From a virus (Duplodnaviria; Caudoviricetes), in the IMG/VR virus record IMGVR_UViG_3300046005_001206, positions 1 through 60,180 of that record: 60,180 bases of DNA, one strand, 5' to 3'. This document shows positions 18,201 through 36,503 of the stretch, in pieces. A program made the translations under genes and the position numbers. Within the stretch, counting starts at the first letter, position 1. Each line of letters begins with the position of its first letter. The notes beneath the pieces are model-generated. The model made no database searches. It worked only from the letters and a program-made list of their open reading frames with translations, and had not been told where the DNA came from.

Positions 18201-18593
18201 ATGCTTACTCTTCATGATATTAACGCCGCCACTGGTTCAAAAGATGCTTGCATCTATTCAGATCTCTACAAGGATGTGTATGGATGCCGTCCATATAATC
18301 CTACGTTCGAGTCGGTCGAAGCATTTGATGCTCACTTCGAAGAGCTCTCGCGCCTGCTTGATAAAGAAATCCAACAAGAAGTTATTGATCAACAGATCTA
18401 CTTCGACAAGTTTGTTGCCCGCGTTGAAGAAACGATGGAAATCGTTCACGATACAACTCGTGAACGTGCGATCAAGATCATCGCCGAAGCAGAAGGCATT
18501 CGCGATGCAGATTTCGACTTCTATGGTCTCGAGATTCTTGAGCACGAATTGCGTCTCAAGTTTGGCTCAATCGCTCGGTGGTTATCAGAGTAA
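18201..18593 (+). CDS. Conserved phage hypothetical protein
   Basis: YSDLYKDVYGCRP motif; promoter and RBS upstream. Confidence 0.7.
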   Translation: MLTLHDINAATGSKDACIYSDLYKDVYGCRPYNPTFESVEAFDAHFEELSRLLDKEIQQEVIDQQIYFDKFVARVEETMEIVHDTTRERAIKIIAEAEGIRDADFDFYGLEILEHELRLKFGSIARWLSE

Positions 18594-18922
18594 TGGCTGA
18601 TCTCTCAGCTTGGTTGGACGATGATCCGATGGTGAACGATGTTCAGACTTTGTCAGAGAAGATCAGGCAGCGACGCACTCAGATGCTCGTGCATTCCTAT
18701 CTCTACTATGTGATGGATGAAAATGTCATCGACGACCATAAGTGGCAAGAATGGGCTGATGAGCTTACCGAGTTGCAGAAGCAAAAGAAGGTAATAGGAT
18801 TCTACGATAAAGCGTTCTCAGATTGGACTGGTGCCACTGGTACACATCTGCCATTCGAACCGTGGATACAAAAAAGAGCAAAAGATTTGCTCAATGCGAA
18901 AATACCGGTGTACATATTATAG
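18593..18922 (+). CDS. Stand-alone NAD-ligase domain Ia-like protein
   Basis: HSYLYYVMDENVIDDHKW resembles the LigA N-terminal Ia subdomain. Confidence 0.55.
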   Translation: MADLSAWLDDDPMVNDVQTLSEKIRQRRTQMLVHSYLYYVMDENVIDDHKWQEWADELTELQKQKKVIGFYDKAFSDWTGATGTHLPFEPWIQKRAKDLLNAKIPVYIL

Positions 18923-18962
18923 AAACTGATATAGTATGAATAATAAGCTAAGGAGATACAAC

Positions 18963-19238
18963 ATGATTGATCTAGAGAGACTGGAAGCCGACCGCGACGC
19001 CGCCCGTGTCACCTTCGACGCCTTCGACGCCATAGAGGAGTACAAACCTGCGCTAACCGCCATCGCCGCCATCGCAGTGCAAACTAAGGAGCAGACCGAG
19101 ATGACTGACCTTGAGAGACTGAAAGCCGACATGGACGCCAAGCGGGAAGCTTATGCCGTCGCCTACGCCGCATGGGACGATGCCACCTACGCCTACAGCG
19201 CCGCCCTCGCAGCGCAAGAGAAGGAAACTGAACAATGA
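18963..19238 (+). CDS. Ala-rich micro-protein (two fused MxDLERL units)
   Basis: MIDLERLEAD... in frame with MTDLERLKAD... at 19101; promoter at 18909 and AAGGAG RBS. Confidence 0.65.
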   Translation: MIDLERLEADRDAARVTFDAFDAIEEYKPALTAIAAIAVQTKEQTEMTDLERLKADMDAKREAYAVAYAAWDDATYAYSAALAAQEKETEQ

Positions 19239-19354
19239 CTAAACTCGAACTATTGAAACTCGCCGCGATGCTTTGCTTTTCGCTGCTGCTTTTTGCGGCG
19301 CTGGTTATGAGCATCCTTGCCGACTTAGGCTTTCGTTGGGGGCCGGGAGCATGA
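19235..19354 (+). CDS. 39-aa membrane micro-protein
   Basis: MTKLELLKLAAMLCFSLLLFAALVMSILADLGFRWGPGA; ATGA-coupled on both sides. Confidence 0.55.
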   Translation: MTKLELLKLAAMLCFSLLLFAALVMSILADLGFRWGPGA

Positions 19355-19419
19355 CAATCGCTTTCGACATCAAGAACCGCTTCACCGGCGCAGCGCAAGA
19401 GCAGGAGACAGACCGATGA
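19351..19419 (+). pseudogene. Truncated gene stub (pentapeptide-repeat-protein-like N-terminus)
   Basis: MTIAFDIKNRFTGA runs directly into the junction repeat (AQEQETDR*). Confidence 0.4.
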
Positions 19420-19574
19420 CTGACCTTGAGAGACTGAAGGCCGAACTCGAAGCGGCCCACGCCGACGAATCTGTGCGCCGGGCGACCCGTGATCTTGAAA
19501 AGGCCATCATGGCAAAATTGGCAGCGCGCGGTCTTGCTCCGCTGGTGCTGTATCGTAGGGAGGTTGCAGAATGA
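19416..19574 (+). CDS. 52-aa micro-protein MTDLERLKAE...
   Basis: RBS inside the repeat; ATGA coupling. Confidence 0.6.
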   Translation: MTDLERLKAELEAAHADESVRRATRDLEKAIMAKLAARGLAPLVLYRREVAE

Positions 19575-19623
19575 CCCGCGAAGTTGAGATACTGACCCGC
19601 AGCGCAAGAGCAGGAGCAGACCG

Positions 19624-19788
19624 ATGACTGACGAAATCCAGAGACTGAAAGTTGCACGGGACGCAGCCCTCGACGCATACGATGCCGCAGCCATCGCCGC
19701 CGACGTCCGAAACGCCGCCGCTGACGTTGCCTACGCCCGCTACAACGCCGCCCGGTCGGCGCAAGAAAAGGAAGATAAAAATGTTTGA
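19624..19788 (+). CDS. 54-aa Ala-rich micro-protein MTDEIQRLKVARDAA...
   Basis: Paralogous to the 18963/19101 units; ends in AQEKE. Confidence 0.6.
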   Translation: MTDEIQRLKVARDAALDAYDAAAIAADVRNAAADVAYARYNAARSAQEKEDKNV

Positions 19789-19933
19789 AGTTCAGTTATT
19801 CGATGACGTTGATGTGAGATATCCTTTGTTTGTGAGCCCTATTTTGGCAGAGGCTCAGTTCTTTTACCATCAACACCGACGCGATAATCCCGATGTTAGT
19901 ATTCGTCTTATCGAAGTTTTACGAAAGAGCTAA
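19781..19933 (+). CDS. Small hypothetical protein
   Basis: MFEVQLFDD...; composition returns to the genome background. Confidence 0.5.
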   Translation: MFEVQLFDDVDVRYPLFVSPILAEAQFFYHQHRRDNPDVSIRLIEVLRKS

Positions 19934-19998
19934 AATAAACATGTACAATAATCCGAAACCGTTGTAAGATGATATTATCAGTTGAAAAGGAATATATC

Positions 19999-20304
19999 AT
20001 GACTCTTACCATCGAACAAATCGAATCAACCTACAATGCGCCAGTCGAAGGCCTTACCGATAGCTATTATCCCGTTCTGGCCTATTGGATTCCGATCGAA
20101 CTTCGCGAGCAAGTTTTGGCCGCTTATCGCGAAACCAATACGCGTGTCCGCCTTCGCTATCGTGGCCCTCGCAACGTCGCTATCGGCCGCGAAATGCCTG
20201 CCACTAAAGGTCGTACTTATATTCGCGGCCGCATCCGGGCGATGCAAGATTGTTTGATTGCCGACGCAACTCATTTCACCGTTTACGACTATACCTCGCG
20301 ATAA
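19999..20304 (+). CDS. Hypothetical early protein
   Basis: Early promoter 19942-19970 and AAGGA RBS; RLRYRGPR motif. Confidence 0.7.
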   Translation: MTLTIEQIESTYNAPVEGLTDSYYPVLAYWIPIELREQVLAAYRETNTRVRLRYRGPRNVAIGREMPATKGRTYIRGRIRAMQDCLIADATHFTVYDYTSR

Positions 20305-35187: not shown

Positions 35188-35261
35188 GTCTTTTTTGAAA
35201 ATAAGCATGTACATTTTATCAAAACTTTAGTAGTATGAATAATAAGCTAAGGAGAAACTTC

Positions 35262-35522
35262 ATGTACACTATTCAATATTTCGACGACACCATCTCACCT
35301 AAATTCCCTAACATCCAAACGCTCGTCGACTATCACAATCAACATCCCGATCTCGACTCATGTATTTTTTATCAAAACGATTATAACCATCGCGACGAAC
35401 TTGTCGCCTATCGACGCGTCGATATTATCCTTAACGAAAAACCCCGTCGAAAATTCGTCAACCACATGACTAAATACATCGAATCCATCCCCGATCAAAT
35501 TCATTGGCAAACTAAAAAATAA
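35262..35522 (+). CDS. Hypothetical early protein
   Basis: Own promoter and AAGGAG RBS. Confidence 0.65.
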   Translation: MYTIQYFDDTISPKFPNIQTLVDYHNQHPDLDSCIFYQNDYNHRDELVAYRRVDIILNEKPRRKFVNHMTKYIESIPDQIHWQTKK

Positions 35523-35600
35523 TTCATTATTTTCAAAATAAACATGTACATTTTATCAAAACTTTGGTAAGGTGGACCTATAATGATGAAGGACGAAAAT

Positions 35601-35813
35601 ATGATTACGAATCTTTGCGGTGGCTCTTTCGAGCATAGGACTGGTCGCAAGTGGACATGGGGCCTTAGCCGCTTTCGCGACGGTGAAGCTATGAAGATTC
35701 GTTGGGAAAAAACTGGTCCCGTAAGCGGGCGGTGGTTCTTTGAGATCGAAGGCATTCAGTATTCTGCCAAATCGATCTCTCCTTACCTCAAAGAAATTCA
35801 GATGCACAGCTAA
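35601..35813 (+). CDS. Hypothetical early protein
   Basis: Own promoter and AAGGA RBS. Confidence 0.65.
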   Translation: MITNLCGGSFEHRTGRKWTWGLSRFRDGEAMKIRWEKTGPVSGRWFFEIEGIQYSAKSISPYLKEIQMHS

Positions 35814-35874
35814 AATAAGCATGTACATTTTATCAAAACTTTGGTAATATGAATAATAAGCTAAGGAGATTGAA

Positions 35875-36177
35875 ATGACTGCTTTTAATAAAAAGAACTT
35901 TGAATACCATGGTGGATACCTGCACTATATGACTGCTACAGGTGAACGCAAGTTTGTTGCGCGCTTCAAGCATCGTGGTCCAGTTACAAAAACCAAGTTT
36001 CAAGCCGCGTTGATCAAGCATTACTCAGTAGAAACCTACTTCGCTCGTCTTGGCGGCGCTTACAATGCACAGGGTGAGGCTCCTCTTCAGATCCTCATGA
36101 ATGATGAGATCTTGCAATTCGATCGCGACGATCTCGGCCGTGGCTACTTTATCCTTGACGGTAAAGAACTTCGCTAA
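35875..36177 (+). CDS. Hypothetical early protein, paralog of 7206..7508
   Basis: High similarity to the 7206 copy. Confidence 0.8.
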   Translation: MTAFNKKNFEYHGGYLHYMTATGERKFVARFKHRGPVTKTKFQAALIKHYSVETYFARLGGAYNAQGEAPLQILMNDEILQFDRDDLGRGYFILDGKELR

Positions 36178-36239
36178 AATAAGCATGTACATTTTATCAA
36201 AAGCTTGGTAATATGAATAATAAGCTAAGGAGATTGAAA

Positions 36240-36503
36240 ATGTTTAATGTTCGAATGAATAAGTTTGGTAACAAAGTTAGCGGCAACTTCTCTATGACGT
36301 TCGCGAATGGCTATAGTGTCTCTGTGGCTATGGGTGACGGCACTTATAGCAATGGTAATTCGGAAGACGGTTTTACCTCTGTAGAAGTTGCTGCATGGGA
36401 TGCTGATGGCAACTGGGTTGAACTGGGTCATGACGATACGCTTGTCGGTTGGCAGCACTCAGATCAAGTCTTGGCGCTCATGAATAAAGTGGCAGCAATG
36501 TAA
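36240..36503 (+). CDS. Hypothetical early protein
   Basis: TFANGYSVSV...VEVA; own promoter. Confidence 0.7.
   Translation: MFNVRMNKFGNKVSGNFSMTFANGYSVSVAMGDGTYSNGNSEDGFTSVEVAAWDADGNWVELGHDDTLVGWQHSDQVLALMNKVAAM

What the first reader, a model, noticed from the sequence alone, without database searches (positions are those of the whole stretch)
18963..19788. GC-rich array of translationally coupled micro-gene cassettes joined by a conserved junction repeat
Seen: an ~830-bp island much richer in GC than the genome (about 60-65% by eye) behind a phage early promoter (18909). It holds 6-7 tiny ORFs (18-54 aa units) chained by ATGA overlaps. A degenerate junction GCAGCGCAAGAGCAGGAGCAGACCG-ATGACTGACCTTGAGAGACTGAA recurs about 5 times. 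It encodes the end of one peptide (AAQEQE), the RBS and the start of the next (MTDLERLKA), while the middles are variable Ala-rich helices or a TM peptide. Inference: a recombination-shuffled library of early-expressed micro-proteins, possibly anti-defence or host-takeover peptides, imported from a GC-rich phage. Most units are below the ORF-track cutoff.
Basis: partly seen in the sequence, partly recalled or inferred. Interest (0 to 1): 0.78.

Follow-up and report, generated by a model that had tools for sequence, protein, structure and literature searches.

The report
Shuffled array of tiny phage helix genes
A T4-like lake phage carries a 1-kb block borrowed from GC-rich phages that holds a chain of very small single-helix protein genes, and related phages carry different numbers and versions of these genes.

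Summary
Window 18963-19788 has 58.5% GC against 42.4% for the window. It is one unbroken + strand chain of small ORFs joined by 4-nt or 8-nt stop/start overlaps. A tail/SD/ATG/head junction recurs four times in full and twice as halves.

The chain is best read as five head-to-tail slots. Three slots (U1, U2, U7) hold members of an unnamed family of 32-118 aa phage proteins. Family members have a conserved head, a conserved tail and a variable Ala-rich middle, with no Pfam or PHROG match. One unit is modelled as a single long helix that pairs antiparallel.

Two slots are broken. One holds a membrane-type peptide plus a tail stub. The other holds the 3' end of one gene and the 5' start of the next gene of GC-rich phages, 87.7% identical in DNA.

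The array lies on a roughly 1.03-kb indel led by a repeated promoter/leader cassette. It is absent from all 23 relatives where both flanks can be read. Other relatives carry 0, one empty, 2, 4 or 5 slots.

Import from GC-rich phages and recombination at the junctions are well supported. Expression and any anti-defence role are untested. I class it as a new variant of modular shuffling in T4-type phages.

The parts
18902..19938 (+). Indel of about 1.03 kb relative to the closest relatives. It comprises a promoter/leader cassette, the GC-rich array and the 50-aa ORF.
   Evidence: In L002-L005, L011, L015, L020 and L021, window 18901-18928 abuts 19914-19942. The boundary sequences were compared. 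Each end lies at a copy of the promoter-like cassette.
18909..18955 (+). Promoter-like element (TGTACA, 17 nt, TAGTAT) followed by a leader with an SD. It is a repeated regulatory cassette.
   Evidence: The motif occurs 8 times in the window against 0.37 expected. The 24-nt leader has 4 copies, at 18932, 35231, 35845 and 36209. The copies are aligned. The simple sigma-70 scan did not call it.
18963..19100 (+). Slot 1 (U1, 46 codons). A family member with no stop codon, fused in frame to slot 2. It is 12 residues shorter than its closest homologue.
   Evidence: Family profile E 1.2e-8. Closest homologue is the 58-aa unit of L053/L060/L068, 85% aa identity.
19101..19238 (+). Slot 2 (U2, 45 aa). 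An intact family member, modelled as a single long helix.
   Evidence: Family profile E 2.9e-16. AF2 model: helix 3-44, pLDDT 96. Homologues in L049 (66% GC) and L079 (58% GC).
19235..19419 (+). Slot 3, split. A 39-aa hydrophobic peptide (19235-19354) with a family-like head, then a 22-aa ORF (19351-19419) that is little more than the family tail.
   Evidence: ORFs. The 39-aa ORF is 100% identical in DNA to that of L270. tblastn found it only in the low-GC relatives (7 loci).
19416..19627 (+). Slot 4, split. A 52-aa ORF made of a unit head plus the last 36 residues of donor gene X, then an 18-aa ORF made of the first 12 codons of donor gene Y plus the junction tail read in another frame.
   Evidence: The family profile spans 19416-19628 with 2 TGA inside. 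tblastn and blastn matches to L093, L064, L092 and L106.
19452..19611 (+). Fragment of a GC-rich phage: the 3' end of an HTH-type gene X, an ATGA overlap, and the 5' start of gene Y.
   Evidence: 87.7% identity over 162 nt to L093 6095-6253. In GC-rich phages X and Y lie downstream of the array.
19624..19788 (+). Slot 5 (U7, 54 aa). An intact family member whose tail overlaps the start of the 50-aa ORF by 8 nt.
   Evidence: Family profile E 2.4e-15. A one-residue variant exists as P0011. Other alleles at this slot are 69, 73, 61 and 25 aa long.
19781..19933 (+). Low-GC 50-aa ORF (39.9% GC), a native ORFan of this phage group that closes the module.
   Evidence: 90-92% aa identity in 10 loci. 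Against L270 it differs at 11 synonymous and 6 non-synonymous codons. In L297 it occurs without any array.
19942..19970 (+). Next promoter-like cassette, at the right edge of the indel, ahead of ORF 19999-20304.

Best explanation
The island is a horizontally acquired gene module in a hyperplastic region of a T4-like freshwater phage, just downstream of the clamp-loader and regA genes.

Content. It carries a tandem array of an unnamed phage family of very small proteins. Each unit has a conserved head (about nine residues after Met-Thr), a variable and mostly Ala-rich middle, and a conserved tail. The tail codons themselves spell the Shine-Dalgarno sequence of the next unit. Its last residues overlap the next start codon by 4 or 8 nt.

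Expression (inferred). The chain is probably transcribed from the repeated promoter/leader cassette at 18909. It is probably translated as a series by coupled termination and re-initiation.

Evolution. The roughly 45-nt tail/SD/ATG/head junction is the only stretch shared by all units. It acts as the homology patch for unequal and ectopic recombination. This adds, deletes, fuses and swaps units and traps neighbouring donor DNA. It accounts for five slots here and 0 to 5 in relatives, a fused pair, an empty head-tail unit, and two broken slots. The whole module also moves between phage backbones at promoter-cassette boundaries.

Products (predicted). The intact units are predicted to be single long helices that pair antiparallel.

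Shown: anatomy, family membership, donor-type homology, presence/absence and slot variation among relatives.

Inferred: transcription, coupled translation and recombination as the cause of variation.

Guess: the helices bind a host or phage target early in infection (about 0.3).
For: Family.
- 193 proteins at E<=0.01 among the 8000 candidates scored.
- 83 representatives at E<=0.001 in 1.84 billion proteins, 80 of them 32-118 aa.
- No family at E<=0.01 in PHROGs for the three units sent. None at E<=1 in Pfam for the window's units.

Arrays elsewhere.
- Tandem arrays of 2-4 profile hits (up to 5 tail motifs) occur in IMG/VR loci. Of the 30 loci with a hit, 28 have 55-66% GC.
- There the array sits between the same flanking genes, in an early/replication region.

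Import into this phage.
- The island has 58.5% GC and raised GC3.
- Window 19452-19611 is 87.7% identical to the X/Y gene boundary of L093.
- None of 23 relatives with both flanks readable has the array.

Mobility. Block 19176-19466 is 94.6% identical to L270. The backbones are 72.6% identical there. Array-free relatives such as L002 are 84-88% identical in backbone.

Slot variation. States of 0, one 25-aa head-tail unit, 2, 4 and 5 slots occur upstream of the same 50-aa gene.

Junction as a DNA unit.
- The tail codons are invariant in 27 distinct units, while the same residues use other codons in the middles.
- The tail is the same whatever gene follows.
- The 18-aa ORF keeps the junction in another frame. 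It is joined through a 10-nt string shared with gene Y.

Coding.
- The head shows synonymous variation, with five Leu codons at position 4.
- pN<pS in 153 of 158 non-independent unit pairs.

Coupling geometry. Five 4-nt overlaps and one 8-nt overlap. These are the spacings described as enriched and most efficient in the passages read from PMC12548453.

Structure.
- U2 is one helix, pLDDT 96.
- The fused 91-aa product models as helix-loop-helix, pLDDT 83, pTM 0.64. Its best fold matches are alpha-hairpins, none significant.
- Two copies of U2: the model supports binding but does not show it. Score 0.55, best of 3 controls 0.03. That mark was reached by 20 of 30 proteins solved as pairs of one chain and 1 of 23 solved as single chains. 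The runs agree in 100% of contacts and the partner pLDDT is at least 87. My own alignment was used, so these counts hold only roughly.

Assembly. 20 lake-water runs hold at least 98% of the sampled words. In 4 of 4 runs laid, contigs cover 18500-19651 or further and 19668/19676-20086 with no differences. These samples may include the source.
Against: - No expression data. No listed holder run is RNA.
- Two of the five slots are debris. For the closest unit pairs pN is about equal to pS (for example 0.090 against 0.076, and 0.114 against 0.102). Selection on the window's own copies may therefore be weak.
- The tail-codon invariance rests on loci that were mostly retrieved with a DNA pattern containing that tail. 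This is an ascertainment bias. The codon-blind peptide search found 15 loci, all on contigs already known. That softens the bias but does not remove it.
- The promoter is a repeated motif only, and a plain sigma-70 scan misses it.
- Helical peptides are easily paired by structure predictors.
- No recombination intermediate was observed.
Confidence: 0.7

Rival explanations
1. Ordinary tandem paralogues. The head and tail are conserved only because the protein needs them. The array grew by simple duplication and divergence, and the junction has no role of its own in recombination.
For: The head residues are kept through synonymous codon changes. pN<pS in 153 of 158 pairs. The family profile aligns full length in most hits.
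Against: - The tail codons do not vary although the same residues use other codons in the middles.
- The same head and tail flank unrelated middles: a hydrophobic peptide, a fragment of two donor genes, and a non-Ala segment in L270.
- A 25-aa head-tail unit exists in L298.
- There are mosaic units.
- The junction is kept out of frame in the 18-aa ORF.
Confidence: 0.12
2. Decaying passenger DNA. The block was picked up from a GC-rich phage and is being eroded. The small ORFs are open by inheritance and composition, and no product matters to this phage.
For: - Slots 3 and 4 are broken. U1 is shortened and has lost its stop.
- pN is about equal to pS for the closest pairs involving window units.
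- Close relatives do without the array, and L298 has collapsed it to a 25-aa stub.
Against: - All six boundaries keep exact 4-nt or 8-nt overlaps with SD-like runs. One frame path stays open over 826 nt.
- The central block is 94.6-100% identical between lineages whose backbones are about 73% identical.
- The same sequence is held without differences in 4 of 4 runs laid.
- The module sits behind a strong-looking repeated promoter cassette.
Confidence: 0.18
3. Assembly chimera, or a gene on the opposite strand. Long ORFs of 98-129 aa lie on the - strand across the island.
For: GC-rich, Ala-rich coding leaves long open frames on the - strand.
Against: - Contigs of 4 of 4 runs bridge both edges with no differences.
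- 20 runs hold the stretch.
- The 100-aa call of the first ORF is recorded on 23 contigs.
- All homologues found by profile search conserve the + strand frames.
Confidence: 0.01
4. Targeted hypermutation (a diversity-generating retroelement) or integron-type site-specific cassette capture produces the variable middles.
For: The conserved boundaries with variable middles resemble such systems superficially.
Against: - No reverse transcriptase match in the record, although the record is only 35% complete.
- Only one 12-nt inverted repeat in 18800-19950, so there are no attC-like sites.
- The differences between units are blocks and indels, not scattered substitutions.
Confidence: 0.02

Closest known systems
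PeSL (promoter-early stem-loop) cassettes and modular shuffling in T4-type phages. Arbiol et al. 2010, PMC2839356 (passages read). Comeau et al. 2014, PMC4122927 (abstract read).
   Same: Small ORFans in hyperplastic regions of T4-like genomes. Indels between close relatives are bounded by a repeated early-promoter-like motif. The proposed mechanism is homologous recombination between short repeated regulatory sequences without a dedicated recombinase. The window's 1.03-kb indel starts and ends at such a motif.
   Different: No stable stem-loop partner was found beside the motif at 18909. Inside the module there is a second, finer level of shuffling. Its repeat is not intergenic: it is made of the coding tail of one gene, the SD, the start codon and the coding head of the next. 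The cargo comes from phages with very different GC content.
Translationally coupled overlapping gene pairs with -4 (NTGA) and -8 spacing. Review by Brown and Wade 2025, PMC12548453 (passages read).
   Same: Every boundary in the chain has -4 or -8 spacing and an upstream SD. The family uses both forms, which give different C-terminal endings.
   Different: Here there is a chain of up to seven ORFs, and the coupling signal is itself a conserved repeat inside a protein family. Coupling was not measured.
Small phage-encoded helical hairpin or dimer proteins that bind host factors, for example Aqs1. This is a fold-level lead only. The antiparallel Ala-rich 'Alacoil' packing is recalled and not taken from any call.
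   Same: Size (45-90 aa), all-helical structure, predicted antiparallel pairing, and a position among early genes.
   Different: There is no significant sequence or fold match: 0 matches at E<=0.001 in PDB and in BFVD. No target is known. No other such protein known to me comes in hypervariable tandem arrays.

Membership tests
Unnamed small-protein family (head / Ala-rich middle / tail) of uncultured phages | Full-length match to the family profile built from metagenomic members | tested here: met
   U2 E 2.9e-16, U7 E 2.4e-15, U1 E 1.2e-8. The slot 19416-19628 matches only by its head and tail, at E 1.1e-5 with 2 stops inside.
Unnamed small-protein family (head / Ala-rich middle / tail) of uncultured phages | Tandem arrangement in which the tail carries the SD and overlaps the next start | tested here: met
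   Window boundaries. The same arrangement is seen in L030, L079, L053 and others.
PeSL regulatory cassettes of T4-type phages | Repeated sigma-70-like early promoter motif flanking ORFans | tested here: inconclusive
   TGTACA-N16-18-TANNAT occurs 8 times against 0.37 expected, and flanks the indel. It scores below the plain sigma-70 consensus threshold. Promoter activity was not tested.
PeSL regulatory cassettes of T4-type phages | Adjacent stable stem-loop (terminator) as part of the motif | tested here: not met
   The terminator scan found no + strand site near 18909 or 19942. The only nearby hit is on the - strand inside the upstream ORF. No stem-loop is visible in the aligned cassettes.
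PeSL regulatory cassettes of T4-type phages | Indels between close relatives bounded by the motif | tested here: met
PeSL regulatory cassettes of T4-type phages | Excised mini-circles formed by recombination between motifs | not testable with these tools
   This needs inverse PCR or long reads from infected cultures.
Translationally coupled overlapping genes | Co-directional ORFs with -4 or -8 start/stop overlap and an SD | tested here: met
   Five overlaps of 4 nt and one of 8 nt.
Translationally coupled overlapping genes | Downstream translation depends on upstream translation | not testable with these tools
   This needs reporter or Ribo-seq experiments.
Diversity-generating retroelement | Reverse transcriptase and a template repeat near the variable region | tested here: not met
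   No RVT_1 match in the 60-kb record. The record is only 35% complete.
Integron gene cassettes | attC-type imperfect inverted repeats at cassette ends | tested here: not met
   Only one 12-nt inverted pair in 18800-19950. An integrase was not searched for.
WXG100 / EsxA-like helical hairpins | Significant sequence or fold match | tested here: not met
   EsxA chains appear at E 0.86-1.1. There is no Pfam match.

The most novel reading that the evidence does not exclude
The tail/SD/ATG/head junction is a true cassette boundary that works inside an operon. It would be a coding-level counterpart of PeSL or attC sites. It would let phages of very different GC content plug any short coding segment into a ready-made, translation-coupled expression chain. 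The single-helix products would pair with one another in many combinations, so that an array encodes a set of homo- and hetero-dimers that phages vary rapidly against host targets such as defence systems.
Probability: 0.15. Interest if true: 0.8.

Novelty: new variant of a known kind. Interest (0 to 1): 0.5.

Why it matters
Most variable genes of T4-like phages are unexplained ORFans, and how they are gained and reshuffled is known only in outline (PeSL model).

This locus gives a clean natural series. The same site carries 0 to 5 units in related lake phages, with traces of the donor's neighbouring genes still inside it. This series shows gene flow from GC-rich phages into a 42% GC myovirus. 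It also shows recombination at a repeat that is part protein, part ribosome-binding site.

The locus also defines a widespread, unnamed family of 32-118 aa single-helix phage proteins. These lie near or below common ORF-calling cut-offs and could be tested directly for pairing and for host targets.

Tried and rejected
- **RNA evidence.** No RNA holder listed. Three metatranscriptome runs of a related sample held next to none of the sampled words.
- **GenBank phages.** blastn (near and distant modes) of 18600-20100 gave no match. tblastn of the 91-aa product gave no match, with the low-complexity filter on.
- **Locus search with alignment A1.** It was replaced by DNA patterns and by the narrower alignment A4.
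- **Tail DNA pattern in bacterial genomes.** Only single, apparently chance hits. None of the 80 fetched loci held a family member in the profile scan.
- **Host of the donor phages.** The conserved 77-aa neighbour gene of the GC-rich phages has no relative in genome contigs, so no host could be named.
- **Head-peptide pattern search.** The back-translated head pattern also hit L031-L035. These hold another small family that shares only the first nine residues and were set aside.
- **Fold searches.** Only generic alpha-hairpins, with 0 matches at E<=0.001 in PDB and 0 in BFVD.
- **Protein atlas.** Only unnamed viral clusters.
- **Earlier findings of this scan.** Nothing relevant.
- **Other explanations set aside.** DGR, integron, opposite-strand gene and chimeric assembly; see the rival explanations.
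- **Junction RNA.** I looked at it by eye for a conserved stem and saw none that survives the codon variation at head position 4. I ran no folding tool on it.
- The comparison was then done for all unit pairs by coordinates.
Full report
**What the window is.** The window is a complete IMG/VR virus record of 60,180 bases, estimated at 35% of a genome. Upstream of the finding lie clamp-loader genes of the gp44 and gp62 types, the translational repressor regA, a 131-aa ORF and a 114-aa ORF that matches a small PHROG annotated as DNA ligase. The phage is therefore T4-like. Its clamp loader is at most 61% identical in protein to any cultured phage. The nearest are Stenotrophomonas phage DLP_6 and the Methylophilales Melnitz phages. 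Twenty lake-water metagenome runs hold the stretch.

**Checking the observation: GC and ORFs.** The island 18963-19788 has 58.5% GC against 42.4% for the window. It contains the highest 400-nt GC bin of the whole window. On the + strand there is one continuous path of ORFs:
- 91 aa (18963-19238)
- 39 aa (19235-19354)
- 22 aa (19351-19419)
- 52 aa (19416-19574)
- 18 aa (19571-19627)
- 54 aa (19624-19788)
- a low-GC 50-aa ORF (19781-19933)

Five boundaries are 4-nt ATGA overlaps and the last is an 8-nt overlap. Each has an SD-like purine run upstream.

**Checking the observation: repeats.** The repeat finder reports the head four times and several tail-containing repeats. In a test without typed patterns, the 18-nt tail (up to 4 mismatches) and the 23-nt head (up to 6 mismatches) each occur three times in the island. 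The means over 500 shuffles of the island are 0.012 and 0.002. The first two units form one ORF, because a 2-nt difference in their junction puts them in frame. The 18-aa ORF reads the junction in a different frame.

**A real protein family.** I built a profile from the window's units and those of one GC-rich contig.
- It finds 193 proteins at E<=0.01 among the 8000 candidates scored in the 5.8-billion collection.
- It finds 83 cluster representatives at E<=0.001 in 1.84 billion proteins. Eighty of these are 32-118 aa, mostly aligned end to end.
- None of the listed hits has a precomputed Pfam domain.
- The window's units match nothing in Pfam at E<=1 or in PHROGs at E<=0.01.
- The protein atlas places U7 among unnamed, purely viral clusters.
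- GenBank phages give no tblastn hit.

Members share a head of about nine residues after Met-Thr and a tail ending in Ala-Ala-Gln plus an acidic, SD-encoding stretch. The middles vary widely and are mostly rich in Ala, Asp and aromatic residues. Some have internal repeats that differ in copy number between variants of 53, 67-70 and 84-85 aa.

Searched against the window, the family profile marks five head-to-tail slots (slot 3 by inspection):
- 18963-19097
- 19101-19235
- 19235-19419
- 19416-19628, with two stops inside
- 19624-19782

**Where the family lives.** In the loci fetched, profile hits occur in 30 loci besides the window. Twenty-eight of these have 55-66% GC, and arrays there give 2-4 hits. 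One contig shows 5 tail motifs in a row. In these GC-rich phages the array sits in a fixed place. It lies after small membrane-type peptides and before a conserved 71-77 aa gene, an HTH-type gene X and a gene Y. The surrounding genes encode an exonuclease, a DNA polymerase, a primase and a helicase. The number of units at that place differs between related contigs, from 1 in L092 to 4 in L030. Several window units have close homologues there. U2 is 82-84% identical in protein to units of L049 and L079. U1 is 85% identical to a 58-aa unit of L053.

**Donor debris inside the array.** Window 19452-19611 is 87.7% identical over 162 nt to L093 6095-6253. In that GC-rich phage this stretch is the 3' end of gene X, an ATGA overlap, and the first codons of gene Y. 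The 52-aa ORF is therefore a family head joined to the last 36 residues of X. The 18-aa ORF is the first 12 codons of Y joined to a junction tail. The join lies in a 10-nt string that Y and the tail share in different frames. Slot 3 is similar. It has a family-like head, a hydrophobic stretch, a stop with restart, and a tail stub. These slots look like scars of short-homology recombination rather than designed micro-genes. They also show that the block came from a phage of the GC-rich type. GC3 of the units is 0.47-0.70 against a mean of 0.427 for the window's 37 long ORFs. The high GC is therefore not only an effect of Ala codons.

**Presence, absence and variation among relatives.** I fetched 28 IMG/VR loci through the upstream 114-aa gene. 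Twenty-three show homology on both sides of the island, and none has the array. In eight of them the flanks abut directly. Six carry an unrelated single ORF instead. The missing stretch is about 18902-19938. It begins at the promoter-like cassette of the array and ends at the next such cassette.

Loci fetched through the 50-aa gene show other array states:
- Three contigs (L270, L272, L273) have a fused pair, the same split hydrophobic slot and a 69-aa unit.
- One (L271/L295) has an extra 58-aa unit in front.
- L293 has two different units of 62 and 73 aa (counted from the family head).
- L294 has a 61-aa allele at the last slot; its upstream part is cut off.
- L298 has a single 25-aa head-tail unit with almost no middle.
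- L297 has the 50-aa gene with no array at all.

The array-bearing relatives L270 and L271 are only 72.6-73.5% identical to the window across the clamp-loader/regA backbone. Yet block 19176-19466 is 94.6% identical, and the 39-aa ORF is identical in DNA. Closer relatives, at 84-88% backbone identity, lack the array. The module, or parts of it, has therefore moved between lineages. In two of the four runs laid, a further contig shares the junction at 19598-19631 and the stretch 19660-19697 but has other sequence between them. Variant units therefore coexist in the same lakes.

**Is the junction more than protein ends?**
- In 27 distinct unit DNAs, the head keeps its residues through synonymous changes. 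There are five Leu codons at position 4 and both codons for Asp, Lys and Glu. This pattern is expected of a translated, selected peptide.
- The head also uses A/T-ending or rare codons that the middles avoid. Arg at position 6 is AGA in 12 of 12 cases, against 1 of 81 Arg codons in the middles.
- The tail behaves differently. The four codons before the acidic stretch are almost invariant: Leu codon 23 of 27, first Ala codon 27 of 27, second Ala codon 26 of 27, Gln codon 27 of 27. In the middles Ala is GCC in 312 of 457 cases.
- The tail is the same whatever follows it.
- Caveat: most of these loci were retrieved with a DNA pattern that contains that tail. A codon-blind peptide search gave 15 loci, all on contigs already found. 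This is reassuring but limited.
- The acidic stretch of the tail spells the SD of the next gene. The last few residues depend on whether the overlap is 4 or 8 nt and on which gene follows.
- Across 158 unit pairs of at least 60% identity, pN<pS in 153. The pairs are not independent, and for the closest pairs the two values are about equal.

**Regulatory cassette.** The sequence upstream of the array has TGTACA, 17 nt, then a TAGTAT-type hexamer, followed by a 24-nt leader with an SD. It recurs at 35208, 35822 and 36186 ahead of other small ORFs. Looser copies lie at 19942, 21253 and 54151. That is 8 matches against 0.37 expected, and 4 leader copies against 0 expected. A plain sigma-70 consensus scan does not call it. 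The resemblance of its first hexamer to the T4 early -35 region is recalled and comes from no call. This is the setting described for PeSL cassettes, in which repeated early promoters with stem-loops flank ORFans and recombine to give indels (passages of PMC2839356; abstract of PMC4122927). I found no stem-loop partner here.

**Structure.**
- With a 69-row alignment, U2 is modelled as one helix from residue 3 to 44, pLDDT 96.
- Two copies of U2: the model supports binding but does not show it. Score 0.55, best of 3 controls 0.03. That mark was reached by 20 of 30 proteins solved as pairs of one chain and 1 of 23 solved as single chains. The runs agree in 100% of contacts and the partner pLDDT is at least 87. 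My own alignment was used, so the counts hold only roughly. The contact list (28 with 14, 25 with 11, 21 with 21) indicates an antiparallel pair.
- The fused 91-aa product, folded without an alignment, gives helix, kink, helix, a loop at the former junction, and a long helix (pLDDT 83, pTM 0.64).
- Its best fold matches are alpha-hairpins of AcrA/MexA, colicin receptor-binding domains, EsxA and the phage protein Aqs1. None is significant.

**Most likely mechanism.** The block is an imported early-type module.
- Transcription from the repeated cassette and serial, coupled translation are inferred from geometry. The 4-nt and 8-nt overlaps are those reported as enriched and efficient (passages of PMC12548453).
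- The junction, about 45 nt of tail, SD, start and head, is the only homology common to all units. I take it to be the place where unequal and ectopic recombination expands, contracts, fuses and swaps units.
- The SD and other short shared strings serve as microhomology for rarer joins. Examples are the X and Y fragments and the join to the 50-aa gene's own SD.
- The intact products are probably antiparallel helical dimers or, when fused, hairpins.
- What they bind is unknown. A role against host functions early in infection is a guess based on position and on variability.

**Comparison and novelty.** The closest known system is PeSL-mediated modular shuffling. The module-level indel fits it except for the missing stem-loop. 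The unit-level shuffling at a coding junction is not described in the PeSL texts I read. A full-text search for alanine-rich, translationally coupled, tandem small phage proteins found nothing pertinent: 5 papers listed, none on such a family. Supplements were not available. I rate it a new variant of a known kind. The family itself is new as a described entity, but function is open.

Noticed in passing
window 35208-36503: Three near-identical copies of the promoter/leader cassette (35208, 35822, 36186) each precede a small ORF of 95-100 aa. This is a second hyperplastic stretch. The leader holds an in-frame ATG, so ORF callers add a spurious nine-residue N-terminal extension. The same happens at 18936.
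   Followed up: partly
window 18578-18922: A stand-alone 114-aa ORF matches a small PHROG annotated as DNA ligase (phrog_6466, E 2.4e-25) and, weakly, the N-terminus of NAD-dependent ligases. It is present in 28 relatives. It is absent from L270/L271, where the array follows the preceding ORF directly.
   Followed up: no
L030 3742-4990; L053 3534-4322; L064 5698-7353; L093 5612-6400: GC-rich phage contigs share a fixed order: small membrane-type peptide(s), a variable array of the family, a conserved 71-77 aa gene, an HTH-type gene X, then gene Y. X and Y are joined by an ATGA overlap. The 77-aa gene has no PHROG match and no relative in bacterial genome representatives.
   Followed up: partly
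L031-L035 (e.g. L031 13904-13929, - strand): A different 65-70 aa protein family in large low-GC viral contigs begins with the same nine residues as the array units but is otherwise unrelated.
   Followed up: no
window 19598-19697 (runs X3, X10): Contigs in two lake runs share the junction at 19598-19631 and the stretch 19660-19697 but carry other sequence between them. A variant unit therefore coexists in the same samples.
   Followed up: partly
window 35544-35869 vs L270 1508-1833: A 76-77 aa ORF lies next to the regA region in L270/L271. In the window it sits 17 kb away, between two promoter cassettes. This is another module that changes place between relatives.
   Followed up: no
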